From the NCBI GenBank assembly GCA_040006935.1, contig JBDTVZ010000001.1, positions 18,218 through 82,217 of the forward strand: a stretch of 64,000 bases of DNA, in the 5' to 3' direction. The first letter of the stretch is position 1. Each line of letters starts with the position of its first letter. This DNA is from Candidatus Dojkabacteria bacterium. Its GTDB lineage: Bacteria; Patescibacteriota; Dojkabacteria; J137. Positions 9,263-31,500 of the stretch are shown piece after piece. Made by a program: the position numbers and the translations under genes. The notes below the pieces were generated by a model. The model was not told the origin of the DNA. It ran no database searches and was given only the letters and a program-made list of their open reading frames with translations.

Positions 9263-10327
9263 ATGAAAACTTGGCAACTTCTAAAACAAAACCCTGAGTT
9301 ATTCGAAAGATATTTTGTAAAAGAATATATAATAAAAGCCTGCAGAAAATTCTTCGAGAATAAAAATTATCATGAGCTTGAAAGCCCATTGTTAACTCCC
9401 TACTTACCTCAAGAAAGGTACATGGACCCAATGAGAGTCGATTTAGAATTGAAGGGACAGAAATTGAAAAAAGAAGTCTATATCACACCAACAACAGAAA
9501 GATATAATAAAGTTCTATTATCAGCTGGGTTTGGAGAGCATTTTGTAATTACAAAAGTTGCCAGAGATTTAGAGGACATTAGTCCAAATCATGGACCAGA
9601 ATTTACAATGTTGGAATGGTATCACCTAGATGCAAATTATAAAGACATGATGGATGATACTGAAGATTTAATAATAAGCATCTTAGATTATTTAAAAAAA
9701 CATTCAAAATTAGATAAATTCTCAAACGGTTATAAATTAACTTTTCAAGGGCAAGAAATAGATTTTTCAAAAGGTTGGGATAGACTTTCAGTTAGTGACG
9801 CTTTAGAAAAATTTGCAGGATTAAAATTAGAAAGTATTCAAACTTTGGAGCAAATTAAAGAAGCAGCAATTAAAAAAGGACATACTGTGGAAGGTGTGGA
9901 AGATTGGCAAGCTTTGTTTGAGCTTATTTTTATAACTGATATTGAACCTAATTTATCTAAAACAAAACCTACTTTCATTTATAATTATCCAAAAATTTTA
10001 GGACCTTTGACAAAACCAAATGTGGAAAACCCTTTAGTTTGTGAAAAGGTTGAGTTGTATATTGCAGGTAAGGAAATTGCTAATGGATATACAGAATTAA
10101 CCGATGGCAATCTTTTAGAACAAAATTTTAAAGAGGAAGAAGGAGCAAGGAAAAAATTAGGAAAAGACTCAATAACATTTGATAATGATTTAGTAGATGC
10201 TGTGAAATCTGGAATGCCAGAGGTTGGAGGAGTGGGAATGGGATTAGATAGATTGGCAATGATATTTACGGATGCAAAAAATATTGCAGAAGTAAATTTC
10301 TTTCCTGCGACGGAATGGTTTGAATAA
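9263..10327 (+). CDS. epmA: EF-P lysine-lysyltransferase (class II LysRS paralog, EpmA/PoxA/GenX)
   Basis: 354 aa with no anticodon-binding domain. HGPEFTMLEWY, KPTFIYNYP, EIANGYTELTD and GMGLDRLAM parallel E. coli EpmA motifs. Confidence 0.8.
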   Translation: MKTWQLLKQNPELFERYFVKEYIIKACRKFFENKNYHELESPLLTPYLPQERYMDPMRVDLELKGQKLKKEVYITPTTERYNKVLLSAGFGEHFVITKVARDLEDISPNHGPEFTMLEWYHLDANYKDMMDDTEDLIISILDYLKKHSKLDKFSNGYKLTFQGQEIDFSKGWDRLSVSDALEKFAGLKLESIQTLEQIKEAAIKKGHTVEGVEDWQALFELIFITDIEPNLSKTKPTFIYNYPKILGPLTKPNVENPLVCEKVELYIAGKEIANGYTELTDGNLLEQNFKEEEGARKKLGKDSITFDNDLVDAVKSGMPEVGGVGMGLDRLAMIFTDAKNIAEVNFFPATEWFE

Positions 10328-12208: not shown

Positions 12209-12225
12209 TGTGTAGTGAATAGTTA
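12205..12225. repeat. left inverted-repeat arm bracketing the four-helix-bundle ORF
   Basis: TTAGTGTGTAGTGAATAGTTA is the imperfect reverse complement of 12595..12616 (TAACTATTTCACTTAACACTAA). It overlaps the stop codons of the methyltransferase and of the four-helix-bundle gene. Confidence 0.6.
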
Positions 12226-12582
12226 TTTAAGTCTTTTGATTAGTGTAACTATCATTTTAGATATTTCAATCATATCATTTAAAAGTTCTTCGTATTGTTT
12301 CTCATTGAGGTAGTTTATTTTGAAAGAAATCAATGTTTGTGTTTCCAATTCTGAGAGTGAACCTAATGAAATCCTTAAGAAGTTTATGAAATCTTTAGTA
12401 GTTCTTCTGGATCCTTCCGCAATATTTGAAGGAATCGAAACAGAGGATCTTCTTAATTGGTTTGTAATTCCGTAAACTTCTTTTGCAGGAAAATTTTCTG
12501 TATATTGATAAATTTTTACAGATAAATTAATACTTTTTTTCCAAATAGATAAATCTTTATATGAGGATATTTTGTTTTCCAT
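12223..12582 (-). CDS. four-helix-bundle protein (23S rRNA intervening-sequence protein family)
   Basis: YKDLSIWKKSINLSVKIYQYTENFP..E..GITNQLRRSSVSIPSNIAEGS.R.T.KDFINFL.IS.GSL.ELETQ is the hallmark pattern of this family. ATG at 12582 preferred over GTG at 12591. Confidence 0.85.
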   Translation of the reverse strand: MENKISSYKDLSIWKKSINLSVKIYQYTENFPAKEVYGITNQLRRSSVSIPSNIAEGSRRTTKDFINFLRISLGSLSELETQTLISFKINYLNEKQYEELLNDMIEISKMIVTLIKRLK

Positions 12583-12594
12583 ACTATTCACTAT

Positions 12595-12616
12595 TAACTA
12601 TTTCACTTAACACTAA
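12595..12616. repeat. right inverted-repeat arm bracketing the four-helix-bundle ORF
   Basis: See 12205..12225. It overlaps the efp stop codon. Confidence 0.6.
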
Positions 12617-13173
12617 TTCGCTTTTGAGAAGTATTCCCCGTCCTCGGTGTTTACAATAATCTTTTCTCCTTGTTTTATGAATAATGGAACTTTTACAACA
12701 ACACCTGTTTCTAAGGTAGCGTCTTTTTTAGCACCGGTTGCAGTATCGCCTTTTACAGCATCGTAAGTTTCTGTGATTTCTAGAGTGATTTTTGGTGGTA
12801 ATTGAAGGTAAATAACTTCGTCCTCGTAAACTTTTGCAACATATTTAGCATCTCCATGAAGCCAATCAGTTTTCCCTGGAATTAAATCAAGAGAAATACT
12901 TGTTTGTTCGTATGTGTTTGGATCCATAAAAACAGCATTATTTCCATCTACATAAATAAATTGAACATTTTTTGTAGAAACATCAATTTCCTCAACTTTT
13001 ACACCAGAAGTAATGGTTAAGTTAAAAAATTTACCTGTTTTAATACTTTGAAGTCGAACTCTATTAAATCCCGACCCCTTTCCCATTGATGCGAACTCTT
13101 TCTCAACCATAATGTGAGGTTCTCCATTGTGTTTTATAATCATTCCTCGATACAAATCTGATGTCATTGCCAT
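12613..13173 (-). CDS. efp: elongation factor P
   Basis: MAMTSDLYRGMIIKHNGEP...SMGKGSGFNRVRLQSIKTG parallels E. coli EF-P, including the Lys in the GKG loop (K34 equivalent). ATG at 13173 preferred over GTG at 13179. Confidence 0.9.
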   Translation of the reverse strand: MAMTSDLYRGMIIKHNGEPHIMVEKEFASMGKGSGFNRVRLQSIKTGKFFNLTITSGVKVEEIDVSTKNVQFIYVDGNNAVFMDPNTYEQTSISLDLIPGKTDWLHGDAKYVAKVYEDEVIYLQLPPKITLEITETYDAVKGDTATGAKKDATLETGVVVKVPLFIKQGEKIIVNTEDGEYFSKAN

Positions 13174-13257
13174 ATACACGAACTAATAATTACGAGTAAT
13201 AAGAACCTGAATAACTAAGTATAATAGCATAAATGAAGCAAAGTGAGAAGTTAAAAT

Positions 13258-13749
13258 TTACGCTTCTAGGTTTACACTATCACTTAAATCGTACATAATT
13301 TCCAAAATAATATTAATGGCTGTATTTGTTTTTTCATACATATTAGTTCTACCTAAATAAGGAGTTCTTCTATTCTCATACTCAAGAAAATTATCATTAT
13401 CAGATATGGCTAATGAGATTGACCTAAGATGACTTAGAAAAGTATCAAGAATGTATTTCCTTGTTTCACTTGTAAAAGTTAAATTTCCTATCAATTCTAA
13501 AAAGCCCCTTTCTAAATCACAACTAAACATAGTTATAAACCATGGTGTTATAACTGACTTAGTAGTCTGTGTTGGACTTAAATGATCAGGTGGATTAATT
13601 ATTTTACGGCTAGTAAATTCAGCTAAATTTCTTCTATATGGGTCAGTGATTAGGTTAAGAAGCATTTGAGTTCCAACTTCACTTTTACTAATTTTTGGTA
13701 ATTCTGCATAATTTCCATCACATCCTTGTGTAGGTCCATTTATTTCCAT
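13258..13749 (-). CDS. hypothetical protein, tandem paralog C
   Basis: 163 aa. Shares LLNLITDPYRRNLAEFTSRK and VITPWFITMFSCDLERGF blocks with the two upstream ORFs. Confidence 0.6.
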   Translation of the reverse strand: MEINGPTQGCDGNYAELPKISKSEVGTQMLLNLITDPYRRNLAEFTSRKIINPPDHLSPTQTTKSVITPWFITMFSCDLERGFLELIGNLTFTSETRKYILDTFLSHLRSISLAISDNDNFLEYENRRTPYLGRTNMYEKTNTAINIILEIMYDLSDSVNLEA

Positions 13750-13817
13750 ATATTTTAGAAATAAAAAATATTTACTAAATAATAAAAAATATCCAAAAGA
13801 GAGAAATTTATAGCTGC

Positions 13818-14318
13818 TTAATTTAATATATCTCTACAATTATACAATAGGTTAACTAACTCTTCTAAATATTGCTGAATACAATCATACTTATACTCAA
13901 GTAATAAAAAACTATCTAATTTTACATTTCCACTGTGTTTTATATCTTCTATCTCTTTAACATAAATACTTATGGTATCTACTAGGAATATAAATTGTTC
14001 TAATGTTTGCTTATCAGTAAAGTTTTTGAAAACTAAATATCTTTTTTTAAATCCTTCAATTAAATCTGCAGCAAATTCATTTATAAATTCTGGAGTGATT
14101 ACTTGAGTAATATATTTTAAATAAAAGATCTTCTCTGGTTCGCTTTCTTTAGTTACGATTGAGGTAAGGGGTTTTCTTGTAAATATCTCAGCTCCCAGTT
14201 TTCTCTTTGGATCATTTATCAAATTGAAAAAGAGTTCTATTGAAGAGTAAGCATAGAAACTAACTTCACCATATTTCTTAAAATCATCTGCTCCTTTAGG
14301 GAAGAAGTTATATTCCAT
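13818..14318 (-). CDS. hypothetical protein, tandem paralog B
   Basis: 166 aa. FFNLINDPKRKLGAEIFTRK and VITPEFINEFAADLIEGF blocks. Confidence 0.6.
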   Translation of the reverse strand: MEYNFFPKGADDFKKYGEVSFYAYSSIELFFNLINDPKRKLGAEIFTRKPLTSIVTKESEPEKIFYLKYITQVITPEFINEFAADLIEGFKKRYLVFKNFTDKQTLEQFIFLVDTISIYVKEIEDIKHSGNVKLDSFLLLEYKYDCIQQYLEELVNLLYNCRDILN

Positions 14319-14329
14319 GCAATAAATAT

Positions 14330-14800
14330 TTAATCTAACTCGGAACTATATTCTTTAAGTTCAAATAATATGTGTAAAAGAGGATTTATGATTTTATTGT
14401 CAGCTTTTATTATTAAATCCTTATCTTTAGGTAAACTTAAACTTCCTTCTTCAAACCCATCACTTAATAATCTTGCTGATAAAAGAAATTCATTTACTAG
14501 AGATATTTTGTCTTTTTGTTCACCAGGTTGGAGATTTGTTTTTTTTATAAATTCTATAAATCCATTCTCTATATCCTTGCTAAACGCAGCAATAAACCAA
14601 ACTGTAATTTGATTGTGAAATTTGTATGTAGTTGGTCCTTCAGAAAGCGAAACCATTTGACGACTGCTTAATTCTGCTAGACGCCTTCTTTGCTTATCAG
14701 CAATAAGGGCAACTAGCATTCTAGATCCAACATCTGCCTCTGTTAATTCTGGAAACCTTATATCGTCATCATAACCTTGGTAGATTTCTGTTCTGCTCAT
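14330..14800 (-). CDS. hypothetical protein, tandem paralog A
   Basis: 156 aa. LVALIADKQRRRLAELSSRQ and ITVWFIAAFSKDIENGF blocks. Starts 2 nt after the pheS-fusion stop. Confidence 0.6.
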   Translation of the reverse strand: MSRTEIYQGYDDDIRFPELTEADVGSRMLVALIADKQRRRLAELSSRQMVSLSEGPTTYKFHNQITVWFIAAFSKDIENGFIEFIKKTNLQPGEQKDKISLVNEFLLSARLLSDGFEEGSLSLPKDKDLIIKADNKIINPLLHILFELKEYSSELD

Positions 14801-14802
14801 TC

Positions 14803-16602
14803 TTAATTAGGCTTATAAGCTAAGTTGCCTCCAAGCAATGTTCTAATATCTGTAATTTTATATTTTGCCATCGCCCATCTATCCAGCCCCATTCCAAATG
14901 CATAACCTTGCCATTTACTAGGATCTAATCCACCCATCTTCAAAACATTAGGATGAATAATTCCTGCGCCTCCCATTTCAATCCAACCTCTTCCTTTACA
15001 AATTGCGCAACCTTCACCATGACAGTTAAAGCATCTTAAATCTGGTCCAACTCCTGGTTCAACTTCAGGATAGTATTTACATCTGAATCTTATTTCTACA
15101 TCATCTCCTAAGAAAGTTTTAAACATGTAATTAATAATAGCGAATAATTCAGCCATACTAACCTTCTCTTTCACTGCTGTCATTTGGTATTGATGGAATG
15201 TGAAGTGGTTTGTTCTATTAACTTTCTCATTTCTATAAACTCTTCCTGGCATAACAACTTTGAATGGAGGTTTGAAATCTTCTATAACATGCGCCTCGAT
15301 TGAGGATGTTTGGGTTCTCAATAGAATATTGGGTTCTTCTACAAAAATAGAATCTAATAGATCTCTAGCCGGATGATCCATCGGCAAATTTAGCCTTTGG
15401 AAACTATACTCATCTGTTTCTAACTCCGGTCCATCCATTACGCTAAAACCAATACTTCGAAAAATCGCGTTTAAATCCAGTTCTGTTTGAGTTAAAGGAT
15501 GAAGATGACCTACTTTAGCTTTAGAAAAATTTAATTCTGACTGAGGAATACTTAAGTAACCCTTATTATCAGAATTTTGAATATTTTCTTTTGCCCCATT
15601 AATTAATGCATCGATTGAAGCTTTTAGATTATTAATTGACTGGCCAAAATCTTTTCTTTTATCGTTTGGAACATCTTTAATTGTTTTCATTAATTCAGTT
15701 ACAATACCTTCTTTCCCTAAATACTTTCTCCAAAGATTTGTAAGTTCATCTAATGATGCCGCTTTAGCTACTTCATCATTTACTGTACTTATAATTTCTG
15801 TTTCGTTAACGTATTCAGATTCTACATGTGGCTGTATTTCCTTGACTGTTTTCTCACTCATTTCCTGATTTTTATTAATAGAATAGGACACTTTTAAAGT
15901 ATCTCCTTCTTTTATAATTTCTTCAATAGTAATTCCACCAACTTCAGAAGTTTTTTGCACAATAGTTCCACCATCTGCAAATGACCCAACTCCTTCAAGT
16001 TTCAGCATTCGCAAAGGTTTATTAGAAGGAAGATTTGGTTGTAAATATACTGCTTCTTTAGAAAGCTCATCTAATGTAACAAATCCCCAACTAAATTTTA
16101 AATCTGAGTTTATAAGATCATTTGTAGTGTTTTGAATTTTTTCTTTAAGCTCATTTAAATCACCAACATCTTTTAAAATACTGTATAGGATAAATGGCTT
16201 CTTACCATGATCTGCTTTTAAAGGACTAAGGGAATTAGGAACCAAACCTAATTTCACTAAAGAACAATCAATAATATGTCCTGCAGAATGCATTTTCATG
16301 TTTTGGTACCTTCTTTCCCAATTTATTTCTGCATCAACTTCATCTCCTACTTTTAATTGATTTGTTTTTATACTATGCCAAATTTCTCCATCCTTGATTT
16401 GTACTTGGAAAACTTCAACAAAAGATCCATCGCTAAGCATAAATTTACCTTGATCTGTAGGCTGACCGCCTCCCATAGGGTAAAATACAGTCTTGTCTAA
16501 AATTACTCGCGATTGGTTATCACCTTCTGTAAATACTTCCAAAACTTTAGCTTTGGTAGTTTTTATATATGGTTCTAGAAGGTAGATTGTTTCAGTCTTC
16601 AT
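14803..16602 (-). CDS. pheS: phenylalanine--tRNA ligase alpha subunit fused to an N-terminal AlaX-like (Ala/Thr-tRNA editing-type) domain
   Basis: The C-terminal ~340 aa is canonical PheS (MDHPARDLLDSIF, RTQTSSIE, PGRVYRNE, CHGEGCAICKGRGWIEMGGAGIIHPNVL, AFGMGLDRWAM). The N-terminal ~245 aa resembles AlaX (LDKTVFYPMGGGQPTDQG, W.RRYQNMKMHSAGHII). Confidence 0.85.
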   Translation of the reverse strand: MKTETIYLLEPYIKTTKAKVLEVFTEGDNQSRVILDKTVFYPMGGGQPTDQGKFMLSDGSFVEVFQVQIKDGEIWHSIKTNQLKVGDEVDAEINWERRYQNMKMHSAGHIIDCSLVKLGLVPNSLSPLKADHGKKPFILYSILKDVGDLNELKEKIQNTTNDLINSDLKFSWGFVTLDELSKEAVYLQPNLPSNKPLRMLKLEGVGSFADGGTIVQKTSEVGGITIEEIIKEGDTLKVSYSINKNQEMSEKTVKEIQPHVESEYVNETEIISTVNDEVAKAASLDELTNLWRKYLGKEGIVTELMKTIKDVPNDKRKDFGQSINNLKASIDALINGAKENIQNSDNKGYLSIPQSELNFSKAKVGHLHPLTQTELDLNAIFRSIGFSVMDGPELETDEYSFQRLNLPMDHPARDLLDSIFVEEPNILLRTQTSSIEAHVIEDFKPPFKVVMPGRVYRNEKVNRTNHFTFHQYQMTAVKEKVSMAELFAIINYMFKTFLGDDVEIRFRCKYYPEVEPGVGPDLRCFNCHGEGCAICKGRGWIEMGGAGIIHPNVLKMGGLDPSKWQGYAFGMGLDRWAMAKYKITDIRTLLGGNLAYKPN

Positions 16603-16686: not shown

Positions 16687-17433
16687 ATGTTGGTATTATT
16701 TGGCAACATATTATTGAAAACACAAATGACTACTGCTATGCTTATTCCAAGAGAAGAAATTTTAACTCCAAAAGATTATGATATTGCTCTGACTTTGCTT
16801 CCATTAAATTATAAAGGTAGAGACGAAAGTATGAGAGAATTCTCAATTCATACAAGTTCAATAGCAGATAAATTATTTTCAGATGTACTAGACAAAGAAT
16901 CATTAGATATTCTTGTTAAAACTATTAATGATTGGATGTTTAAATCCAGAGATTTAGTTTTAAAAACTGAGGAAGGTTTTTATTCAGGATTACTAAATAG
17001 CAGGCTTTTTGCTTATAGATTAAATAGCATTTTAAGCCCATTATCAGACGGAAATAAGTACAGTAAAGATAGTTTCTCTACAAACTCTATTGAATTATTA
17101 ACTAAAATTTGTTCATTAACTAGACAGGGAGTAGATGAAATTCTATTGAGTGTTCAACCAGATTGCTTTCCATATTTAAACCCTCAAGGGATACCATATA
17201 GCAATGAAGATAAAATGATAGGATCGAATAGAATTATTAATCCAAACTATGACAATAGAAAAAGGAATATCTATATTGAACTAAACCTACTGAAAAATAC
17301 AACTAACAGACTTTTGTTACTTATCGGGAGACTAGGATCTAAAAAAGAACAAGAATACCTTTTGCACCCTCCTGTTGAAGGTTCACTTAATGGAGATTCT
17401 AATATCCTGCATCCAGGAAGTATAGAAGGTTAA
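16687..17433 (+). CDS. hypothetical protein
   Basis: 248-aa ORF with no recognisable family. Its 3' end overlaps the convergent tgt by ~50 nt. Confidence 0.5.
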   Translation: MLVLFGNILLKTQMTTAMLIPREEILTPKDYDIALTLLPLNYKGRDESMREFSIHTSSIADKLFSDVLDKESLDILVKTINDWMFKSRDLVLKTEEGFYSGLLNSRLFAYRLNSILSPLSDGNKYSKDSFSTNSIELLTKICSLTRQGVDEILLSVQPDCFPYLNPQGIPYSNEDKMIGSNRIINPNYDNRKRNIYIELNLLKNTTNRLLLLIGRLGSKKEQEYLLHPPVEGSLNGDSNILHPGSIEG

Positions 17434-20905: not shown

Positions 20906-23900
20906 ATGAATAGTGCAATTGCAAAAGCTATCGCAGGACAAGACACTCTTGTTACTCCAGCTAGATTTGATAATAATCAGCAAAAAGACAGAATGAGAAA
21001 TAAAAATGGAGCTGATGGTCGTGGTCTTGTACAAAAGTACGGTATTAATCCTACTGATTTAGCAGCGCTTGAAGCCTATGTTGATGGAAACCTACAACAA
21101 GTACAAATTATAGACCAAGACGCAAATACAATGGAAGCTGATAGATTAAATCAGTCCAGTGGTGGTGAGCAATGGCTTAGAAAACATAAAATTACTAAAT
21201 TTATTGGTAAATTTGGTAAATTTATAGCACCACAAATTGCAGGAATGGGCGTAAGAGCAGCTTTTGGAACAGTAGGTGCAACAGGTGGTCCATTAGTTGC
21301 AGGGGCAATTGGAGGACTTACAGGTGGTTTAAAAGCTGCAGTTGATATTACATTGGCAGGAAGGAATAACACAGACATTGTCGAGTTCTTTGGTAAGAAT
21401 GTAAACGTGGCTGGAGTATTTGAGCAACAGAATAGAGATAAATGGAAAGTAGATAAATTGGCAAGAGGCTGGTTTAATTGGGGAAAAAATTGGGCATTAG
21501 AACCAGTTTATAAATATCAAGAGAGAGAAGATAGGATTTTAAATTTCTTAAGCGATAAAAGGCTAGATTTTTCTAGAGAGGGATATTTCAGAGATCCAAT
21601 GACGGTATTCCCTGTAATGAAGAATCTCCCACTTTCAGATATCCAATTATTTTTGAAAGATTTGTATATACAAGGTACTCTCCTTAGTGCTGTAGGGAGC
21701 AGAAAGGATTTAACACCAGAAGTTAGAAGGATAATCCAAAATTGGATAGACTCATTTTGTGAATTACAACTAATGCTAAATGCTATTTTGTTGAATAGAG
21801 GTTTGCCTTTAACACAAATAGAAGGGATTAGGACTGATGCAACGAAAGAAATAACTTCGTTTAGATCTGCCAAAGGAGAGGCTGCATATGCTCTCAGAAG
21901 AGGCACAACTAATGCAATTCAAAGTGCTGTTTATAATGTAGCATTCCAAACCTTAGTAACAGGTGTTCAAAAATTAGTTACACACTATCAAGGTCTAGTT
22001 ACAATTAATAGAGAGTTAGTTCCAATAAATAACAATGTGGATGCAATGAGGGCAGCTAATCCTCGTTTGGATCAAATAGATCAACAGGTACAGAATTTAC
22101 AGACCCAATTACAACAGACAAACGTAGCTGGTGGGGTTACTAATGTAACCAATCAAGTAGTGCAAAATGTGGCAGGGACTGCAAGAGATAGAGCCCTTTC
22201 ACTCTTTGGTGCAGATTACTTAAATAATGCCGGAATGGGAGAAATGGGAAGGTGGGCAAGAGTTGCAGCAATACAAACTTTTCAAAATCAATATACACCT
22301 CAAGTTGAGAATTTGATTGGAACTTTATCAAGAAACACACACTTAAGCAGAGATGATATCTTAGCCTGGATAATGAATAGAGGGTCTATTGATGGAGCTT
22401 ATCAAGTAGTTGGCGGAGCTTCTATAGTAAATTTAAACGTAACTGATTTACTAACAAGAGCCATAAATGGTCAGTATAATGTTGCATCAATTATTCAAGG
22501 TGCAAATGCAAATGTAGATGCTAGGTGGTTAGATTTAATGAAAAATGGAATGGGACAAATAATTAATCAAGTAACTACTACTAATGTTGCAGGTGCTGGA
22601 TTAACAGATGCTGCACGAGCAAATATTTTTGAGCAAATTGCGAGATTATTAGCTGAGAAAGCTTTAATTGGAGAGAATATTGGGGGAGCTGAATTGCAAA
22701 GAGCAGTAGCTGCTATGGATCCTAACATTTTAAGACAGATATCAGAAGGAAGTGTAAATGTTTTGGATTACTTAATCGATACTGGGTTAATTGTTGCTGG
22801 CGGTGCAATTGGGTTTATAGGTGTTGCAGGTTCTTGGGCAGCAGAAAGTGGGGAATTAGGCACAAGAAGAACTGTTGAAGTTAGAAGAAATATCCCTAAT
22901 CCAAATACTCCTATGCCGCCACCGGTTGGGCCAAATGGTAGACCTTATCCTCAGCCTAACGCGCAACGTGCAGCAGTTTATAATGCAACGCCATATCCAC
23001 AACAAGCTGCGAATCAGCAGCCAGGATTAGCTCCTGTTCCGCAAGGAGGATTAGGTTCAGGTGTTCCAGTTTCAAGCGATGAAACGCTTCATGGTGTCAG
23101 AGCATTGGATGATGCTTCAGCTCAAACAGTCCCATCTGATTTTTTTGCTAACACAAGGCAAAATACCTCCACTCAGCCTATATTAAATAATGCTGTGCCT
23201 CAACAAAATCAACCAGTAGATCAAAATAATCTTGTAGCTAAGATTAATCAAATTATGACTGAGAATTATGACTTGCCTAGAATTATTAATGAGATAATTA
23301 ACAATCCTAGAACAATTACTTTGGACGCTGTTATCCATAACGATAATATATCGAGGCTTTTTGACAAAGCCTTGATCTCGAATTTAGGTATTAAAGAGAA
23401 AGTCTACTATTTAGGAAATGATGGACTAAAAAAAGAAAAAGATATTATGAAATTGATTATTATTAATGACCAATACAATGATATTGTGAAGGATCTAGAC
23501 GCTTGGGGATTAAGTAAAGATCAAATTATCCTTAGACGTATTGTTAATAAACCAGGTGGAGGTGAGGAGGAAGTATTCTACAATATGAAAATAAATAATA
23601 GAAATTATACAATTGAGGAAATAACTGATTCAGGTGTTGAAGTAGGTGGTATTCAATATGGAACACCAAAAGTCACTGACTTAGGCATTGGATTCAATTT
23701 ACTTAGTCAAATAGAAGAAACACAGAAATCTACATCAGTAGGAGAAAATCAAGTAGAAAATAAGGACGAAGATATTATTGCGAGATTTAATATTCCTGAT
23801 TATCCTACTGGAGCTTCTCAGGGTTATCCCGAATCTATAGCAGGAAAAGAAGCAATTATTAATAAAAATTATAAAGAGGAGTATAAATTGCAGCCATATG

Positions 23901-26900
23901 ATGGAGAAGTAGAAAAATATCCACTATTTGATAATGATTACAATGAATTTGACGGAATAATGTTACATAGATTTGAAATTGAAGGTCAAAAATTTGATTT
24001 ATTTATAACTAAAGAAGGTGCAATTTGGTATTTCGATAAAGATAATAATTTTATGAGATTAGAAAATCCTGCAAATGTAGGAGGAACTATTACTTTAGAT
24101 AACGGTGAAGCTTATGAAATAAAATTAGATGCAAATCATAATGTAAGAGTTAAGAAGAACGAAGTTGTTGCAGCACCAGATGTAATTGGTGAGAAGATAA
24201 TTGTAGATGGAGATGAAGTTATCATTAACTCATCAGAAAATTTAAGATTACTTGGCTCTGGAAATAGCTCTATCCCACTTGAATCTTTTGCGATTAAAGA
24301 TGGTAAAGGGAAAATAGAAGAAGACTCAAGGCTATTAGTAATTAATAACCAGAAGTATGTGTTCAGAGATGGGAAAATATATGAAATTAATGGAACAGAG
24401 GTAGTAGAAGATCAAGATGGAACTATCACTATTGAATCATCAAAAGAGCGAGATGTGAAAGTAAAATTATCTAACGGTAAAATAGAAGTATATGAAATTA
24501 TAAAGGGTGATCTTAAATTACCAAAATTGGAAAGAAGAGAATTCCAAGCTAACAGTGTCGAAACGAAGAAACTAAGTTCAGAAGAAAGATTGCAATCACT
24601 AAATGATCAATTAAAAGATAAAAAAATCACTATAGAAAACAAAAATGAGAGTGCAATTACTATTAGTGATTTAGAATTAACACCAGATGAAAAGGCTTTA
24701 CTCCAAGGAAGATTATCTTTGTGGTACGACAGAATTCAAGAAATCAACCCTTTAATCTTAACTGGTCCGTATGATAAAACTTTCAATTTTCAAGAGTATG
24801 GTAATGGTGAAAGTATAGCTGCTGCAATTGTAGAATCTGGTTTTGAAGGAAATAATAATAGTTTAAATCTAGTTGATTTTATAAATAACCCTGACAAATT
24901 GGATATAGCTGATGTAGAAAGAGCTTTGATTAACAAATTTGGATGGAAAGAGGAAAAACAAGCAGAAAATAGAGTGGAAATTATGCTTTATGTTTACCAT
25001 TTAGTTCATGCTGTGGAAGGTGCATTAGGTGGATATTTCGGAGTATATAATCAATTAGAGGCTCTTGATGGTAAAGATATAAAAATTGATATTCAAAATG
25101 ATTCTGGGGCAAATGCTATTCGTTTTGTAGGTAAAGATAATATTAAAGAATTAACACCAGAGAACAAGGCCTTCATTGGCGGTAGAATTACTAAATTATT
25201 TGATATTTCTAGGAAGTTGAATCCTGATATTAGCCCTGAAGACCATCAAACACTTCACTATGACTTTTCAAATGATGGTAATAGGATGCTTAATGCTATT
25301 AGAAAAATTGTTTCTAAAGAGAACGCGGGACCAATATCCTTGTTTAATCTATTAAATGAGATCGAGATTATTGATTTCGGAGAATTATTCCCAACGTTGT
25401 TTATGGAGGGTTGGAAAGACGACAACATGAATGATAATAGAGCAGCAGTTGGTTTAATGCTTTGGCATTTAGCAAATGCAATTGAGGGACAGCTAAGTGA
25501 TAATGAAGTAAAGGGCGAAGACAAAATTTTGGATGTTGACACTGAAATAAAAAAAGACAAGGAATTTGTTGTCAGATTAATCTCTAGCATAAAAGATGTC
25601 ACACCTAAATCTACCTCTGAAGAACGGCTATTCCCGATGGTATTTGAAGCGATTGGCTATAATACTGGAAATAGAGATAACCCAGATTTGCTTGTAACAG
25701 CAATTATTATGGATTCTATTGAGCATTATGCACTTCCAGGATTAGTAAATAGAATAATAGACTTAATGGATATTGATGATGTCGATAGAGAATCCGTGCG
25801 ATTAGGAATTTATACATTTATAGAGGAAAAATTATTAACTAACGATATTGCTGTAGTTCATAAGGACGATGCAAAGACTGCTTTAATTGGACTTGAATCC
25901 AGGAAAACTCTAGAGACACTAGATATTGCTTTAAGTGTCGAAGAAATAAGTAAATTAAATAAAGAAAGTAATGAAGATGAACAAACTAATAATTTAGAAG
26001 TTAACAAGTTCCCGGAGAGTATGGAACTAAACAAGGCATATGAAACTTTAATTCAATGGGATAGAAATCCTTTAAAAGTTGAAATCCCAGTAACTAATGA
26101 GCAAGGGGTAAGTTTTCAGATAAGTTTTAACCATAAAGAATTAGTACCAGCACTTAATGCAGAAGGTCGAATAATGCATAGGGAATTTAACGTTAAGAAC
26201 TCCCAAAATGTTAAGGATTATCCTACTGAGTCTGGGGAATACACGTTGATTTATTCTTTTAGTAAGGTTAAAACATCGGGAGAGGGGATTGAAAGTTTAT
26301 TAATAGAGTATAAAGTTTTAAAGAAAGAAACTCCCGATTCTAAAAATATAGATAAAGTTAAGCTACTAAGAACGATTGAAGAAAAAGAGAAAAACTTAGG
26401 AGAATTACAAGAACAATTACAATCTAATCTAATAAGTAGAGAACTTTATAATGTCAAGAGGAGAGATTTAATGTTTAAAGTAGGAAATGATTGGTTATTA
26501 GTGGGGTTAAAACGATGGCATCTTCATCATCCTGAAAAAGCAGGTACCAAGGACGAATGGGAAATAATTAACCCATACCAAAGGTATCAATTAGAGAGGC
26601 CTATTATTAAAACTAAAGATATTAATGAACCAGACTTTCTTGCCAGCCTAAGTGAGGGTAATGATCAGGTAATCAGAAATCTAGATGCTGAGAAAATAAT
26701 TGGAGAACTTAAGCCAGGAAGACAGTTTGAATCGGATGATAATATCTTTACAGTTATAGAGATTACCCCAAACGGAGTATTTAGAACAAAAAGGCAATCA
26801 AGGAAAGGGGGAATAGAAGTATCTCTAAATTTTGCAAGAGAAAATCTATTGGAATATTTTACAGAAGGAAGGTTGAGAACTATTGAAAATATTAATGTAA

Positions 26901-27463
26901 ACGAAAATAAAAAGAAAGTAGATGAAATTGTTATCTCATTAGAAAAAAATAAAGAACTAATTGAAAGATTAACTATCAATGACAGATTCAGAAGAAAAAC
27001 CACAAATACTACTTACACAATCGAAGATAATGATGGTGATAGTTTGGTAGTAATAGAAAGCACTGCTCGAACAGAAACTCCTATGTTTTTAAGAAAAAGC
27101 ATTTTGCTTGAATGGTTGCTTAACGATGATGTGGAGATGTTAGAGCCAGAAGATAATTCTGAATATGAAAAAACTGTTGAAAACTTAAAGAAAGGGGATG
27201 AATTTACCTACAACGGAAACAAGTACGTGGTTTTACCTAGTATCTCAGGTTATCGTGGGATAGTTGGCGGTAACATAGATAAGCGAAGCGATGTGAAGAG
27301 ATTTCCATCTGGGACCTTTATGAGATTTTTAAAGGAAGGAGTAGTTAAGATTGAAAGTACGAATGAAGAGATAACGCAACAAGTTGCAAAAGGAGTAAAG
27401 GAAGCTCAGAGAAGTCCAACAGCTATTCTAAAGGAAATAGCAGATACTTATGAAGATTTATAA
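20906..27463 (+). CDS. giant protein 1 (2185 aa), unknown family
   Basis: Uninterrupted 6.5-kb ORF. Gly-rich hydrophobic segments at 21221..21362 and 22772..22853, a Pro/Gln-rich linker at ~22885..23230, then a K/E/I/N-rich body with internal duplications (24780-25030 vs 25255-25500) and three C-terminal ~60-aa repeats (26702..27357). Confidence 0.8.
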   Translation: MNSAIAKAIAGQDTLVTPARFDNNQQKDRMRNKNGADGRGLVQKYGINPTDLAALEAYVDGNLQQVQIIDQDANTMEADRLNQSSGGEQWLRKHKITKFIGKFGKFIAPQIAGMGVRAAFGTVGATGGPLVAGAIGGLTGGLKAAVDITLAGRNNTDIVEFFGKNVNVAGVFEQQNRDKWKVDKLARGWFNWGKNWALEPVYKYQEREDRILNFLSDKRLDFSREGYFRDPMTVFPVMKNLPLSDIQLFLKDLYIQGTLLSAVGSRKDLTPEVRRIIQNWIDSFCELQLMLNAILLNRGLPLTQIEGIRTDATKEITSFRSAKGEAAYALRRGTTNAIQSAVYNVAFQTLVTGVQKLVTHYQGLVTINRELVPINNNVDAMRAANPRLDQIDQQVQNLQTQLQQTNVAGGVTNVTNQVVQNVAGTARDRALSLFGADYLNNAGMGEMGRWARVAAIQTFQNQYTPQVENLIGTLSRNTHLSRDDILAWIMNRGSIDGAYQVVGGASIVNLNVTDLLTRAINGQYNVASIIQGANANVDARWLDLMKNGMGQIINQVTTTNVAGAGLTDAARANIFEQIARLLAEKALIGENIGGAELQRAVAAMDPNILRQISEGSVNVLDYLIDTGLIVAGGAIGFIGVAGSWAAESGELGTRRTVEVRRNIPNPNTPMPPPVGPNGRPYPQPNAQRAAVYNATPYPQQAANQQPGLAPVPQGGLGSGVPVSSDETLHGVRALDDASAQTVPSDFFANTRQNTSTQPILNNAVPQQNQPVDQNNLVAKINQIMTENYDLPRIINEIINNPRTITLDAVIHNDNISRLFDKALISNLGIKEKVYYLGNDGLKKEKDIMKLIIINDQYNDIVKDLDAWGLSKDQIILRRIVNKPGGGEEEVFYNMKINNRNYTIEEITDSGVEVGGIQYGTPKVTDLGIGFNLLSQIEETQKSTSVGENQVENKDEDIIARFNIPDYPTGASQGYPESIAGKEAIINKNYKEEYKLQPYDGEVEKYPLFDNDYNEFDGIMLHRFEIEGQKFDLFITKEGAIWYFDKDNNFMRLENPANVGGTITLDNGEAYEIKLDANHNVRVKKNEVVAAPDVIGEKIIVDGDEVIINSSENLRLLGSGNSSIPLESFAIKDGKGKIEEDSRLLVINNQKYVFRDGKIYEINGTEVVEDQDGTITIESSKERDVKVKLSNGKIEVYEIIKGDLKLPKLERREFQANSVETKKLSSEERLQSLNDQLKDKKITIENKNESAITISDLELTPDEKALLQGRLSLWYDRIQEINPLILTGPYDKTFNFQEYGNGESIAAAIVESGFEGNNNSLNLVDFINNPDKLDIADVERALINKFGWKEEKQAENRVEIMLYVYHLVHAVEGALGGYFGVYNQLEALDGKDIKIDIQNDSGANAIRFVGKDNIKELTPENKAFIGGRITKLFDISRKLNPDISPEDHQTLHYDFSNDGNRMLNAIRKIVSKENAGPISLFNLLNEIEIIDFGELFPTLFMEGWKDDNMNDNRAAVGLMLWHLANAIEGQLSDNEVKGEDKILDVDTEIKKDKEFVVRLISSIKDVTPKSTSEERLFPMVFEAIGYNTGNRDNPDLLVTAIIMDSIEHYALPGLVNRIIDLMDIDDVDRESVRLGIYTFIEEKLLTNDIAVVHKDDAKTALIGLESRKTLETLDIALSVEEISKLNKESNEDEQTNNLEVNKFPESMELNKAYETLIQWDRNPLKVEIPVTNEQGVSFQISFNHKELVPALNAEGRIMHREFNVKNSQNVKDYPTESGEYTLIYSFSKVKTSGEGIESLLIEYKVLKKETPDSKNIDKVKLLRTIEEKEKNLGELQEQLQSNLISRELYNVKRRDLMFKVGNDWLLVGLKRWHLHHPEKAGTKDEWEIINPYQRYQLERPIIKTKDINEPDFLASLSEGNDQVIRNLDAEKIIGELKPGRQFESDDNIFTVIEITPNGVFRTKRQSRKGGIEVSLNFARENLLEYFTEGRLRTIENINVNENKKKVDEIVISLEKNKELIERLTINDRFRRKTTNTTYTIEDNDGDSLVVIESTARTETPMFLRKSILLEWLLNDDVEMLEPEDNSEYEKTVENLKKGDEFTYNGNKYVVLPSISGYRGIVGGNIDKRSDVKRFPSGTFMRFLKEGVVKIESTNEEITQQVAKGVKEAQRSPTAILKEIADTYEDL

Positions 27464-28505: not shown

Positions 28506-31500
28506 ATGCAGTACGATGAGATTAAACAAACACAAAATAATAATCTTACCGAAATTCAAAGAGAACGTGAATTAAAAGCTGCACAACTTCGAGCACAAAA
28601 TGCTTCTACAATTTTAAACAAAAAAATTAATCGGTCTTCATTTTCTAATTCTGCTAAAGAAGTTAAACCATTTGATTATCTTGAACGGCTAGAATGTTCC
28701 ATGACATTAGATAGAGTTGATTCAGAAAGAAATGGTACTAATATCAATACTCAAATTATAAATTGTGATTACTCTACAGAAATAGATTCTAAAGGTAGAG
28801 AAATAATTAAAATGACAGTGCCCCATCGGCTGGATTTTTTAGCACTAAATTTAAACCCAGGATCAGTTTTTATTTTTGATAGGTCTAACTATAGATTGCT
28901 ATCTATAGAACAAAAAGATCAGCAGAAAGTAGTAAATTCTGTTGAAGTTTGGCCTCATGTTGAAATACTATCTATAGATAAAATACTTTTCACATTCTCA
29001 GATTTACTTAATAAAGAGAAAATCGTAGCCTTTGAAAGTTTAGAAAATAATGTAATGCGTCTCAAAAAAGGTCCTTTTGATGGCTTCCCAAATAAAATTT
29101 ATTTCCAAAAATATAACCTTGAGAACCCAATATTTATTGAAGACTATGATGAAATTAAAAAAGCCTACCATGCTCCTGGGCAAGGGTCTTTTATTGATGT
29201 TGATTATAATATGGCTATTAAAGCGTTTAACCAAGCATCGAACATATTAGAAACCGAAGACAGAACTGCTGATTTTCAATACCCAGAAGTATTAAGATTA
29301 TTTTCTAAATTAAAAATAGCATTTGCTAAAGATTTAATTCCTAATGAAAATCCTCATGACACTGTTTTTGAATTGAGATTAAGAAACGAATTAAATATTG
29401 ATGGTGTACATATTTACGCAGGGGCAGTAATGAAAATTGATGTGAATGATCCAGAATTTTTTACAATAAAGTATCCTCCTCAAAATGGTGTCCAGATTGA
29501 GTTTATAGAAATAAATGGCACAAAATTATATGCACCAGGGGAAATTTTGTGTAGAAATACCTCCGAAGATCTCCAAATAACCTCAATAAATGGTGGCCAA
29601 CTCGAGAATATGGGAAGCGAAAGAGTTATTAAAATTATAAAAGCAAATAATGGATTTATTGGCTTGGTAGCAAATGATGAAGTAATTAAATTCACGAAAG
29701 ATCATAAAGTTTTAACTTTACTAAGTAATGTGGACCCATCAGTACAAATACTAATAAGTGATATTATGAAAAATAGATACTTTTTACATGATATTTACTC
29801 TGATAATTACCTAGAAGGGGCAATTGAACTTGTAAGTAATCACACAGGTTCTCTTGCTACAATAATATTTGAAGATGAACAACCTGGGAATATAATTATT
29901 CCAAACTATCCAAACATTCATCCATCGTTACACGGTCTTGCAATAGGCCAATTTGACAGATTAATTTTAGATAAAAAAGGTGAATTTGCAATCTTTGGCG
30001 TTGCTACTGAAAGATACGATATGCATTTTCGTGGAGTATGGTACGAAAGAATAGAACGAATTTTTATAAATTTTCGAACTGGAGAGGTTAGGTTTAGGTG
30101 TGATAGCTATTTTGAAGGTGGCAAAAGATACGGTCAAACTAAGTACAGTGAGAATACTTATATTATTGTCGATAATTTAGGCCTTAAACAAACAGGAGAT
30201 GGTATATTTTCTGAAGTCGAAAACAATGTGCCAAAGGGAGATGATTATAAGGACCACATTTCAAGGACGCTTAAAATTAAAGAAATAAGAATAGGAGATA
30301 TGAGACAGTTAAATGAAGATAGGATTGATATAACTGCATCATTTGACTCAATAGTATTAAATAACCAAGAAAACCCCACATTACATAACTGGATATACGC
30401 ACAGGCTCCATTTGGAAGTATTGTTAACTTTAATAGTAAAAATTCTATAATTGAAAGCATTGAAGTACCCTACGATACCTATATAAAATCTGGTGGGATA
30501 CGCGCATCACTAGGATCTAGCTTTAAAATAAGTGGTATAAGAAAAGTTTTATTTGAGGAAGATTCTCAGAATTTTCCATTAGATGTAAAGGAATTAAAAG
30601 GTGAAATTACTATTACATTAAATAATAAAATTTATAGGGCAAAAGATATTAGTGTTAATAGTTTAGGTTTAAAATTGGACAAATTCCCTTTAATTACTTG
30701 GGAGGTTATTTACAATGGTGCTACAGAATTACCTGATGAGTTATTAGTGGAAAATAATAGTGTAAATATACCAACAAAGAACGAAATTCTTTATCTTGCA
30801 AATCGATTAACTGTGCAGGTTAATAATAGGAAACCTGAAGATGACTTTGATCTAGAACAAAATGTAAATAGTTTAATCGGGCTAACAAGATGGCTATATG
30901 AATCTGCAAATAAATTAGGTGGCCCATTCAATCTAGCGGAATGGGTTACAATCTATAAACCATTACTTTATTATTACTATAACGACCCTGAGGCAGTAAT
31001 ATTGCTAATAATGGGCTTTATACCTAATTCAAACGGTAATATAGATCCAATAGATTACATGTTTCTTTATGCAACATACCTTGAGATTTTTAAACAAAGA
31101 TATCCGGAGGTAGAAAGTGAATTAATTTTACTATTGAGTAGTTTAAACCCCGATCTTAAATTTATATATAAGAATGAAATTAAAGATATTATAAGTAATT
31201 TTGAAATACTCGAAGATGAGAATAAGCAACATTTCCTAGACGAGTTAGATAGCATAAATATGGATACGCCTAGTCATATCCCAGTCCCAGTAAGTCACTC
31301 TCAAGTAGAAGGCTTCAAAGCAGACCAATTCTCAATAGAAAAAGGTTTTCTCAAATTTAATGAAGAACCTAAAGCAATCGATCTTTTACAAAGAATAGGT
31401 AACCTTCGAGAACTTTCAACTAGCTCTGAGCTTGACAAGCAAATAGAAATAATTAAAGAAAACGGTTCGAGAATTGATATGAATGTTGTTGGTCAGATTT

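What the first reader, a model, noticed from the sequence alone, without database searches (positions are those of the whole stretch)
14803..16602. PheRS alpha subunit fused to an AlaX-like editing-type domain with a degenerate zinc site, and no adjacent pheT
- The 599-aa ORF is a full PheS, including the N-terminal coiled coil (LDELTNLWRKYLGKEG...), preceded by ~245 aa with AlaX / AlaRS-ThrRS second-additional-domain features (FYPMGGGQPTDQG, W.RRYQNMKMHSAGHII).
- The first zinc motif HxxxH is intact (H105, H109). The position of the canonical CxxxH motif reads ADGGTI (aa 209-214), so Cys and His are replaced. Hydrolytic editing may therefore be lost or altered.
- In bacteria, PheRS proofreading normally resides in the beta subunit, and pheT usually follows pheS. 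Here pheS is instead followed (2-nt gap) by three small paralogous unknown ORFs.
- Possible meanings: a tRNA-binding appendage, a trans-editing activity recruited to PheRS, or compensation for a reduced beta subunit.
Basis: partly seen in the sequence, partly recalled or inferred. Interest (0 to 1): 0.55.

Follow-up and report, generated by a model that had tools for sequence, protein, structure and literature searches.

The report
PheRS alpha subunit carrying AlaX-type domain
A bacterium of the candidate phyla radiation has a tRNA-proofreading module, normally found on alanine and threonine tRNA synthetases, tethered to its phenylalanine tRNA synthetase; this pairing recurs in three gene arrangements and I found no paper describing it.

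Summary
The ORF at 14803-16602 lies on the minus strand and encodes 599 aa. It consists of an AlaX-M/AlaRS-type beta-barrel plus editing domain (aa 1-244), a disordered linker, and a complete PheS. HxxxH is intact, and the CxxxH position reads D210...I214.

The fusion is real. At least 28 protein clusters from independent assemblies share the architecture.

The "degenerate zinc site" reading is not supported. Asp210 is invariant, and every other position conserved across the family is kept, so the site looks remodelled (His-His-Asp) rather than decayed.

The missing pheT neighbour is not tied to the fusion. Unfused Dojkabacteria relatives have the same tgt-pheS-X-efp order, while fused genes in other lineages sit directly upstream of pheT.

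The same domain family is also found fused to the C-terminus of PheT, and as a separate gene immediately upstream of pheS-pheT. This argues for a functional link with PheRS.

In the PheT partners I could test, the B3/4 editing residues are mostly intact, so simple compensation for a lost editing site is not supported in general.

Best reading: a tethered second deacylase site on PheRS whose substrate is unknown. This genome's own pheT could not be located.

The parts
14803..16602 (-). Complete ORF, 599 aa: AlaX-M-like domain, linker, PheS (PheRS alpha subunit)
15871..16602 (-). N-terminal AlaX-M/AlaRS-type module (aa 1-244): beta-barrel plus editing core
   Evidence: NCBIfam AlaXM over aa 3-235. 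AlphaFold2 pLDDT is above 87 throughout this part. Foldseek matches AlaRS 2zze/2zzf at rmsd 2.3-2.5 A over about 250 columns, and AlaX-M 9iuw (target TM 0.85) and 3kew (0.84)
16447..16485 (-). Gly-rich loop FYPMGGGQPTDQG (aa 40-52), conserved across the family
   Evidence: Invariant in A1. Conserved in both the Asp-type and the Cys-type relatives
16276..16290 (-). First metal motif H105-SAG-H109 (HxxxH)
   Evidence: Invariant
15961..15978 (-). Second metal motif position, A209-D-G-G-T-I214: the canonical Cys is Asp210 and the canonical His is Ile214
   Evidence: Aligns with ACGGTH of 2zze. D210, G211, G212 and T213 are invariant in the 29 fused proteins
15757..15870 (-). Disordered, hypervariable linker (aa 245-282)
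   Evidence: pLDDT below 50 for aa 245-263. Mean pairwise identity 15%, length 34-93 aa among homologs
15553..15756 (-). PheS N-terminal coiled-coil arm (aa 283-350)
   Evidence: Pfam PF02912, 65 bits. Long helices in the model
14806..15528 (-). PheS class II catalytic core (aa 359-599), with motif 2 (GRVYRNE...FHQ) and motif 3 (GYAFGMGLDR) intact
   Evidence: Pfam PF01409, 234 bits. Foldseek matches bacterial PheS at target TM about 0.8. Alignment with E. coli PheS
14998..15033 (-). Four-Cys knuckle insertion (C524, C527, C532, C535) within the catalytic core
   Evidence: Nearly invariant in A1. Absent from E. coli PheS
13258..14800 (-). Three tandem paralogous small ORFs directly downstream. 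Context only; there is no evidence that they belong to the PheRS function

Best explanation
The gene encodes a CPR-type PheRS alpha subunit. An AlaX-M-type aminoacyl-tRNA deacylase module is tethered to its N-terminus by a flexible linker of about 40 residues. I infer three things:
- The module is still a metal-dependent ester hydrolase whose metal site uses His105, His109 and Asp210 in place of the canonical His-His-Cys-His.
- Being tied to PheRS, it acts on aminoacyl-tRNA made by that enzyme, as a second, trans-like resampling proofreading site. It would work alongside the beta subunit's B3/4 site rather than replacing it.
- Proximity, rather than tRNA sequence read-out, supplies the specificity.

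Shown here: the fold, the residue conservation, the reality of the fusion, and the recurrent genomic linkage to pheS and pheT.
Inferred: catalysis, metal binding by Asp210, tRNAPhe as the carrier, and the identity of the amino acid removed (unknown).
For: 1. The domain has the AlaX-M/AlaRS editing fold, modelled with high confidence.
2. Every position conserved across the wider family is invariant or nearly so: T3, Y7, F40-Y-P, G44-G-G-Q, D50, G52, H76, R98, H105, H109, R198, G211-G212, E220, Y240. Only Cys to Asp, the last His to I/Q/L, and Met102 differ from the canonical type.
3. The domain is 53% identical on average within the Dojkabacteria clade. That compares with 47% for the coiled-coil arm and 15% for the linker, so it is under purifying selection.
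4. The family is linked to PheRS in three independent ways:
   - fused to the N-terminus of PheS, on two PheS types that are only 33% identical to each other (window type and P0115/L097 type);
   - fused to the C-terminus of PheT (P0225/L007, P0243, P0251, P0298, L033);
   - as a separate gene directly upstream of pheS-pheT (L023, L060).
   Seven of the 80 best genome loci are PheRS-linked.
5. The PheT partners I could test keep the B3/4 residues, so the module is an addition rather than a replacement.
6. The linker is long and variable, and the domain is attached at either subunit. This fits a tethered trans-acting factor. Published work reports that AlaX-S and human AlaX have relaxed tRNA specificity (PMC11295145; PMC11260482).
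Against: - No biochemical data exist.
- In human AlaX the Cys of CxxxH is required (C209A is inactive; PMC11260482). Whether Asp substitutes functionally is untested.
- Pfam tRNA_SAD does not hit, and NCBIfam AlaXM scores 145 against a cutoff of 300.
- The one described precedent for an AlaX-like domain on another synthetase (apicomplexan TrpRS) is non-catalytic and aids tRNA binding (PMC3680381).
- Both attachment points (the alpha coiled-coil N-terminus and the beta C-terminus) lie, from my recollection of the Thermus PheRS-tRNA structure, near the tRNA elbow and anticodon, not the acceptor end.
- Free-standing copies at 50-52% identity occur away from pheST, in Chloroflexota and in Patescibacteria (L015-L020). 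The family is therefore not exclusive to PheRS.
- Fused and unfused PheS are interleaved in the tree, so the domain is dispensable for aminoacylation.
- The model gives no confident inter-domain geometry (pTM 0.45).
Confidence: 0.5

Rival explanations
1. The AlaX-like domain is a non-catalytic tRNA-binding appendage that helps PheRS bind tRNAPhe. It might substitute for the B1/B2 (OB-fold) region missing from many CPR beta subunits. This is how the AlaX-like domain of apicomplexan TrpRS is thought to work.
For: - Precedent: Plasmodium TrpRS has an AlaX-like domain on a 72-residue linker that is needed for tRNA binding (PMC3680381).
- CPR PheTs of 600-700 aa lack the N-terminal B1/B2 region.
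- In some CPR PheTs a tRNA_bind domain occupies the same C-terminal position where the AlaX-like domain is found in others (P0237, P0243).
- The canonical Cys and His are gone.
Against: - In Plasmodium all four metal ligands are lost. Here HxxxH, Asp210, the Gly-rich loop, R98, R198 and E220 are invariant across more than 40 clusters. That pattern is typical of an active site, not of an RNA-binding surface alone.
- Unfused relatives with 83-87% identical PheS do without the domain.
- In P0243 both tRNA_bind and the AlaX-like domain are present, so they are not simple alternatives.
Confidence: 0.2
2. The domain is an ordinary AlaX. It clears Ser- or Gly-tRNAAla, or has broad specificity, and is merely co-expressed with or physically parked on PheRS, with no role in phenylalanine fidelity.
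For: - It is closest to AlaX-M and the archaeal AlaRS editing domain.
- Free-standing Asp-type copies occur in Chloroflexota, Patescibacteria and DPANN archaea with no pheST nearby.
- Some PheRS-linked copies are fully canonical CGGTH types (L060, P0295).
Against: - Linkage to PheRS recurs in three architectures and on two non-orthologous PheS types. That is hard to explain without a functional connection.
- No comparable linkage to alaS was seen in the 80 loci, although this was not searched for systematically.
Confidence: 0.2
3. The protein is not the housekeeping alpha subunit but an orphan PheS paralog, with or without the AlaX-like domain, that has a different job. The real PheRS would be a separate pheS-pheT pair elsewhere in the genome.
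For: - Contigs labelled Dojkabacteria (L095, L096) carry a pheS-pheT operon whose pheS is only 33-35% identical to the window's PheS part.
- In six loci of this group (L001, L002, L003, L012, L013, L014) the window-type pheS never has pheT beside it.
- The window protein scores just under the NCBIfam pheS cutoff.
- The Phe-pocket motifs differ from E. coli.
Against: - The same PheS type sits in the classical thrS-infC-rplT-pheS-pheT operon in Microgenomates (L004-6) and next to pheT in L007 and L033.
- Its catalytic core is 76% identical within the clade, with motifs 2 and 3 intact.
- The unfused close relative P0021 passes the pheS cutoff.
- No contig was seen carrying both types.
- Genomes of this group are small.
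Confidence: 0.07
4. The fusion is an assembly or frameshift artefact joining two genes.
For: None found.
Against: - It is a single uninterrupted ORF.
- The same architecture occurs in at least 28 clusters from independent NCBI, JGI, ENA and Logan assemblies, with a conserved MKT start.
Confidence: 0.01

Closest known systems
AlaX-M trans-editing proteins (Pyrococcus AlaX-M, PDB 2e1b and 9iuw) and the beta-barrel plus editing domains of archaeal AlaRS (2zze, 2ztg)
   Same: - Same two-subdomain fold (rmsd 2.3-2.5 A against 2zze; target TM 0.85 against 9iuw).
- Same Gly-rich loop and HxxxH.
- The same family-conserved Arg, Glu and His positions.
   Different: - The Cys of CxxxH is Asp and the His is Ile.
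- Met102 is fixed.
- It is not free-standing and not on AlaRS; it is fused to PheS.
- It scores 145 against a cutoff of 300 on the NCBIfam AlaXM model, and Pfam tRNA_SAD does not hit.
[quoted passage not shown]
   Same: An AlaX-family module appended to the N-terminus of a synthetase other than AlaRS or ThrRS, through a long flexible linker.
   Different: - There the module is the AlaX-S type, all four metal ligands are replaced, and it acts in tRNA binding.
- Here it is the AlaX-M type with three of the four ligand positions still able to bind metal and an otherwise intact active site.
- The host enzyme here (PheRS) already has its own editing domain, and the organism is bacterial.
Bacterial PheRS (alpha-beta)2 with B3/4 editing in the beta subunit (E. 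coli, Thermus thermophilus, M. tuberculosis structures)
   Same: - The C-terminal 340 aa are a complete bacterial-type PheS: coiled coil plus class II core, target TM about 0.8.
- The beta subunits encoded beside related fused or domain-linked pheS genes keep the B3/4 residues.
   Different: - An extra N-terminal editing-type domain.
- CPR-specific changes in the Phe-pocket motifs (KYYPEVEPG for SYFPFTEPS; HQYQM for HQMEG).
- A 4-Cys insertion.
- pheT is not adjacent in this lineage.
Editing modules that occur both fused and free-standing: ProXp-ala fused to ProRS, the INS/YbaK family, and the ThrRS N2 domain
   Same: The general principle of one deacylase fold occurring free-standing, in an operon, or fused to a synthetase in different lineages (PMC11295145).
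   Different: Those modules edit products of the synthetase family they are ancestrally related to. Here an AlaRS/ThrRS-lineage module is attached to an unrelated synthetase.

Membership tests
PheRS alpha subunit (PheS) | Class II catalytic core of the PheS type (Pfam PF01409), with motifs 2 and 3 | tested here: met
   PF01409 scores 234 bits against a cutoff of 19.8. GRVYRNE...FHQ and GYAFGMGLDR align with E. coli. Foldseek target TM about 0.8 to bacterial PheS
PheRS alpha subunit (PheS) | N-terminal coiled-coil arm (PF02912) | tested here: met
   65 bits, aa 283-344. Long helices at aa 300-350 in the model
PheRS alpha subunit (PheS) | Passes the curated equivalog threshold (TIGR00468) | tested here: inconclusive
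   221 bits against a cutoff of 237.45. The 83% identical unfused relative P0021 scores 243.9 and passes
PheRS alpha subunit (PheS) | A partner beta subunit (pheT) in the same genome | not testable with these tools
Related fused genes in other lineages have pheT directly downstream
PheRS alpha subunit (PheS) | Canonical Phe-binding pocket residues (the FPF motif and the Glu of HQMEG; their roles are recalled from the Thermus structures) | tested here: not met
   The motifs read KYYPEVEPG and HQYQM. The same is true of all CPR PheS of this type, including those in pheS-pheT operons, so this is a lineage trait and not evidence against PheRS function
AlaX-M trans-editing protein | Beta-barrel plus editing-core fold | tested here: met
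AlaX-M trans-editing protein | Gly-rich loop and HxxxH motif | tested here: met
   G44-G-G-Q47 and H105/H109 are invariant
AlaX-M trans-editing protein | CxxxH motif (third and fourth zinc ligands) | tested here: not met
   D210 and I214 occupy these positions. Asp is invariant; the last position is I, Q, L or H among relatives
AlaX-M trans-editing protein | Passes the curated threshold (NF040865), or hits Pfam tRNA_SAD | tested here: not met
   145 bits against a cutoff of 300. No PF07973 hit
AlaX-M trans-editing protein | Free-standing protein | tested here: not met
   It is fused to PheS. Free-standing relatives of the same Asp type do exist (P0241, L015-L020)
AlaX-M trans-editing protein | Hydrolysis of Ser- or Gly-tRNAAla | not testable with these tools
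   Needs a biochemical assay

The most novel reading that the evidence does not exclude
CPR bacteria and their relatives have a previously undescribed PheRS-associated proofreading factor. It is an AlaX-M-derived hydrolase with a His-His-Asp metal site, delivered to PheRS either as an operon partner, fused to the alpha subunit, or fused to the beta subunit. It would remove a mischarged species from tRNAPhe that the B3/4 site does not handle, giving PheRS two chemically different editing sites.
Probability: 0.35. Interest if true: 0.75.

Novelty: new variant of a known kind. Interest (0 to 1): 0.58.

Why it matters
PheRS is the textbook case of a synthetase whose proofreading sits in its own B3/4 domain. 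AlaX-type domains are known as editors for AlaRS and ThrRS products. Finding an AlaX-type module recruited to PheRS repeatedly and by three routes, with its active site conserved but its metal ligands changed, would have two consequences:
- It would extend the known range of this editing fold to a third synthetase system.
- It would give a natural test of whether tethering alone sets the tRNA specificity of a promiscuous deacylase.

It also affects annotation. NCBI names this protein "alanine--tRNA ligase-related protein", although it is most likely the PheRS alpha subunit.

The Cys-to-Asp variant, which also occurs in free-standing copies in Chloroflexota, CPR bacteria and DPANN archaea, is a defined and testable variant of the AlaX metal site.

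Tried and rejected
**Locating this genome's pheT failed**
- There is no pheT in the window.
- The window protein itself is not on record for contig look-up.

**The genome-contig scan was cut short**
It therefore gave architectures, not a census.

**Ideas rejected**
- His132 as a replacement fourth metal ligand: the same His is common in canonical Cys-type AlaX-M relatives (71%), so it is not a compensating change.
- The three downstream small ORFs, or the 316-aa neighbour in relatives, as a reduced beta subunit: they have no similarity to PheT or to each other's families.
- A leader or T-box upstream: Rfam finds nothing, and the promoter scan is at background level.

**Not pursued**
- An Arg reading G3:U70: no conserved Arg is visible at the expected place in either subfamily, and the mapping rests on my memory only.

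**Literature**
- Five full-text searches found no description of an AlaX-PheRS fusion.
Full report
**1. The observation**

The ORF lies on the minus strand at 14803-16602. It runs from ATG to TAA and encodes 599 aa. The window is about 32% G+C. The identical protein is in NCBI from a Candidatus Dojkabacteria MAG (candidate phyla radiation, CPR), on a contig of 516,739 bp, where it is named "alanine--tRNA ligase-related protein".

Domain hits:
- Pfam finds the C-terminal beta-barrel piece of the AlaRS model (aa 24-97), the PheS N-terminal domain (aa 283-344) and the PheS class II core (aa 359-595, 234 bits). It does not find tRNA_SAD.
- NCBIfam finds AlaXM over aa 3-235 (145 bits, cutoff 300) and pheS (221 bits, cutoff 237).

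Motifs and neighbours:
- H105 and H109 are present.
- Residues 209-214, ADGGTI, align with ACGGTH of Pyrococcus horikoshii AlaRS.
- The stop codon is followed by two bases and then the next start codon.
- The three downstream ORFs are paralogs of one another.

Every factual element of the finding holds.

**2. The fusion is real, and it is one of several arrangements**

Nineteen full-length homologs (52-66% identity) and about ten more distant ones (38-45%) share the architecture. The distant group includes a protein from Microgenomates bacterium GW2011_GWA2_44_7.

An exhaustive profile-free search with the N-terminal 250 aa found the same domain in three settings:
- at the N-terminus of PheS-sized proteins;
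- at the C-terminus of PheT-sized proteins (P0225, 909 aa; P0243, 1089 aa; P0251; P0298; P0250);
- free-standing, at about 240 aa.

A scan of species-representative genomes added more cases:
- fused genes directly followed by pheT (L021, L022, L024, L029);
- a PheT carrying the domain (L033);
- two loci where the domain is a separate gene immediately upstream of pheS-pheT (L023, L060).

Seven of the 80 best loci are PheRS-linked, far more than chance adjacency would give. P0115 (L097) carries a Dojkabacteria-like domain (49% identity, ADGGTI) on a PheS that is only 32% identical to the window's PheS part. It too is followed by pheT. The association therefore persists across two non-orthologous PheS types.

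**3. Structure**

The AlphaFold2 model, built on the 29-sequence alignment, has block-mean pLDDT of 87 or higher for aa 1-240 and is disordered across aa 245-263. The PheS half is modelled well. The pTM is low (0.45), so there is no confident inter-domain packing.

Foldseek results:
- The N-terminal part matches archaeal AlaRS beta-barrel plus editing domains (2zze, 2zzf; rmsd 2.3-2.5 A over about 250 columns).
- It also matches AlaX-M (9iuw, target TM 0.85; 3kew, 0.84).
- The C-terminal part matches bacterial PheS (target TM about 0.8).

**4. The metal site is remodelled, not decayed**

In the 29 fused proteins the following are invariant: F40, Y41, P42, G44-G46, Q47, D50, G52, W95, R98, M102, H105, G108, H109, H132, K195, R198, D210, G211, G212, T213 and E220.

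I compared 23 Asp-type sequences with 102 canonical Cys-type AlaX-M-like sequences. The two groups share all family-conserved positions. The only differences are:
- Cys to Asp at position 210;
- the final His (to Gln, Ile or Leu; a third group keeps DGGTH);
- Met102.

His132 is also common in canonical sequences, so it is not a replacement ligand.

Within the Dojkabacteria clade the mean pairwise identities are:

| Region | Mean identity |
|---|---|
| AlaX-like domain | 53% |
| Coiled coil | 47% |
| Catalytic core | 76% |
| Linker (34-93 aa long) | 15% |

This is the signature of a functional domain on a flexible tether. Asp is a competent metal ligand (general knowledge). Whether it works in this site is untested. 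In human AlaX the Cys-to-Ala mutant is inactive (PMC11260482).

**5. pheT**

The order tgt-pheS-X-efp is shared by a fused relative (L002) and by an unfused relative whose PheS is 83% identical (L001). pheT is absent from both neighbourhoods, and also from L003 and L012-14. The missing neighbour is therefore a lineage gene-order trait.

In Microgenomates the fused gene sits in thrS-infC-rplT-pheS-pheT. Its PheT (P0121, 636 aa) lacks the B1/B2 region but keeps N254, H265, G318, E334, T354 and A356 (E. coli numbering). The same is true of the PheT proteins that carry the domain themselves.

A different clade linked to the domain (L021, L022, L023, L024, L029, L060) has E334 replaced by Phe or Trp and R359 replaced by Leu. 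This is interesting, but there is no same-clade control.

PheT proteins labelled Dojkabacteria (P0410, P0414; about 800 aa, with tRNA_bind) have intact editing residues. However, they sit next to a very different pheS, only 33-35% identical to the window's. Two questions therefore stay open: which beta subunit pairs with the window protein, and whether its genome has a second pheS.

**6. Evolutionary dynamics**

In a neighbour-joining tree of the PheS parts, fused and unfused forms are interleaved. The window protein's closest relatives (P0020-24) are unfused. In L001 only 66 bp separate tgt from pheS, so the domain is truly absent there. The domain is thus gained or lost often and is not needed for aminoacylation. 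That fits an accessory quality-control module.

**7. Mechanism**

The best-supported reading is a tethered AlaX-M-type deacylase with a His-His-Asp site that resamples PheRS products, in addition to B3/4 editing (confidence 0.5).

Rivals:
- A non-catalytic tRNA-binding appendage, as in apicomplexan TrpRS (PMC3680381), where however all four ligands are lost (0.2).
- An ordinary AlaX merely parked on PheRS (0.2).
- An orphan PheS paralog (0.07).
- An artefact (0.01).

The amino acid removed cannot be inferred from sequence.

**8. Novelty**

Five full-text literature searches found no description of an AlaX-PheRS fusion. Reviews list AlaX only as free-standing or as part of AlaRS and ThrRS (PMC11580382; PMC11295145).

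The proteins themselves are in public databases, variously annotated. I rate this a new variant of a known kind, of moderate to good interest. Its main value is the recurrent three-way linkage, which makes a specific biochemical hypothesis testable.

Noticed in passing
window 13258-14800 (-): Three tandem small ORFs (156, 166 and 163 aa) follow pheS with gaps of 2, 11 and 68 nt. They are paralogous only to each other and hit no Pfam or NCBIfam family. The slot between pheS and efp holds unrelated genes in relatives: a 316-aa protein in L001, its homolog near pheS in L003, and a 306-aa ORF on the opposite strand in L002.
   Followed up: partly
window 9263-10327 (+), 12613-13179 (-), 12223-12591 (-): An EpmA/GenX-like truncated LysRS paralog (253.6 bits against a cutoff of 286.9) lies near efp. 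In relatives efp and this gene are adjacent (L001, L002). A 23S rRNA intervening-sequence protein gene sits between them here.
   Followed up: partly
window 14806-15528 (-), aa 509-517 and about 470-474: The CPR-type PheS, including this one, reads KYYPEVEPG where E. coli has SYFPFTEPS, and HQYQM (HQYQG in most relatives) where E. coli has HQMEG. From memory of the Thermus structures these positions line the phenylalanine pocket. The Glu appears to have moved from one motif to the other, which suggests a rewired pocket across this whole PheS type.
   Followed up: partly
window 14998-15033 (-), aa 524-535: A four-cysteine CxxCx4CxxC insertion sits in the PheS catalytic core. It is nearly invariant in both CPR PheS types and absent from E. 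coli PheS and from P0115.
   Followed up: partly
L021, L022, L023, L024, L029, L060 (PheT genes): The beta subunits of one clade linked to the AlaX-like domain have the B3/4 residue E334 (E. coli numbering) replaced by Phe or Trp and R359 replaced by Leu, while H265, N254, G318, T354 and A356 are kept. No same-clade control lacking the AlaX-like domain was available.
   Followed up: partly
P0121, P0134 and others; P0237, P0243, P0389-P0405: Many CPR PheT proteins (600-700 aa) lack the N-terminal B1/B2 region. A subgroup carries a tRNA_bind OB-fold at the C-terminus instead, and in P0243 and P0391 the AlaX-like domain follows it.
   Followed up: partly
L095, L096 versus the window: Contigs labelled Dojkabacteria carry a second, E. 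coli-like PheS type (33-35% identical to the window's) in a pheS-pheT operon with a full-length PheT. Whether both types ever coexist in one genome is unknown.
   Followed up: partly
window 20906-27463 (+), 28506-33941 (+), 33938-35911 (-): Two giant ORFs (2185 and 1811 aa) have no Pfam match. They lie next to a TraG/VirB4-like P-loop ATPase.
   Followed up: no
window 16687-17433 (+): A 248-aa ORF with no family hit lies between tgt and pheS on the opposite strand and overlaps the 3' end of tgt by about 50 nt. The fused relative L002 has an unannotated 213-aa ORF in the same slot.
   Followed up: no
L009-L011 (P0241): A free-standing Asp-type copy, 51% identical to the window domain (ADGGTI), sits among GNAT acetyltransferase genes, a peptidase S66 gene and an H+-pyrophosphatase gene. 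This context does not look like CPR and suggests horizontal spread of the subfamily.
   Followed up: no
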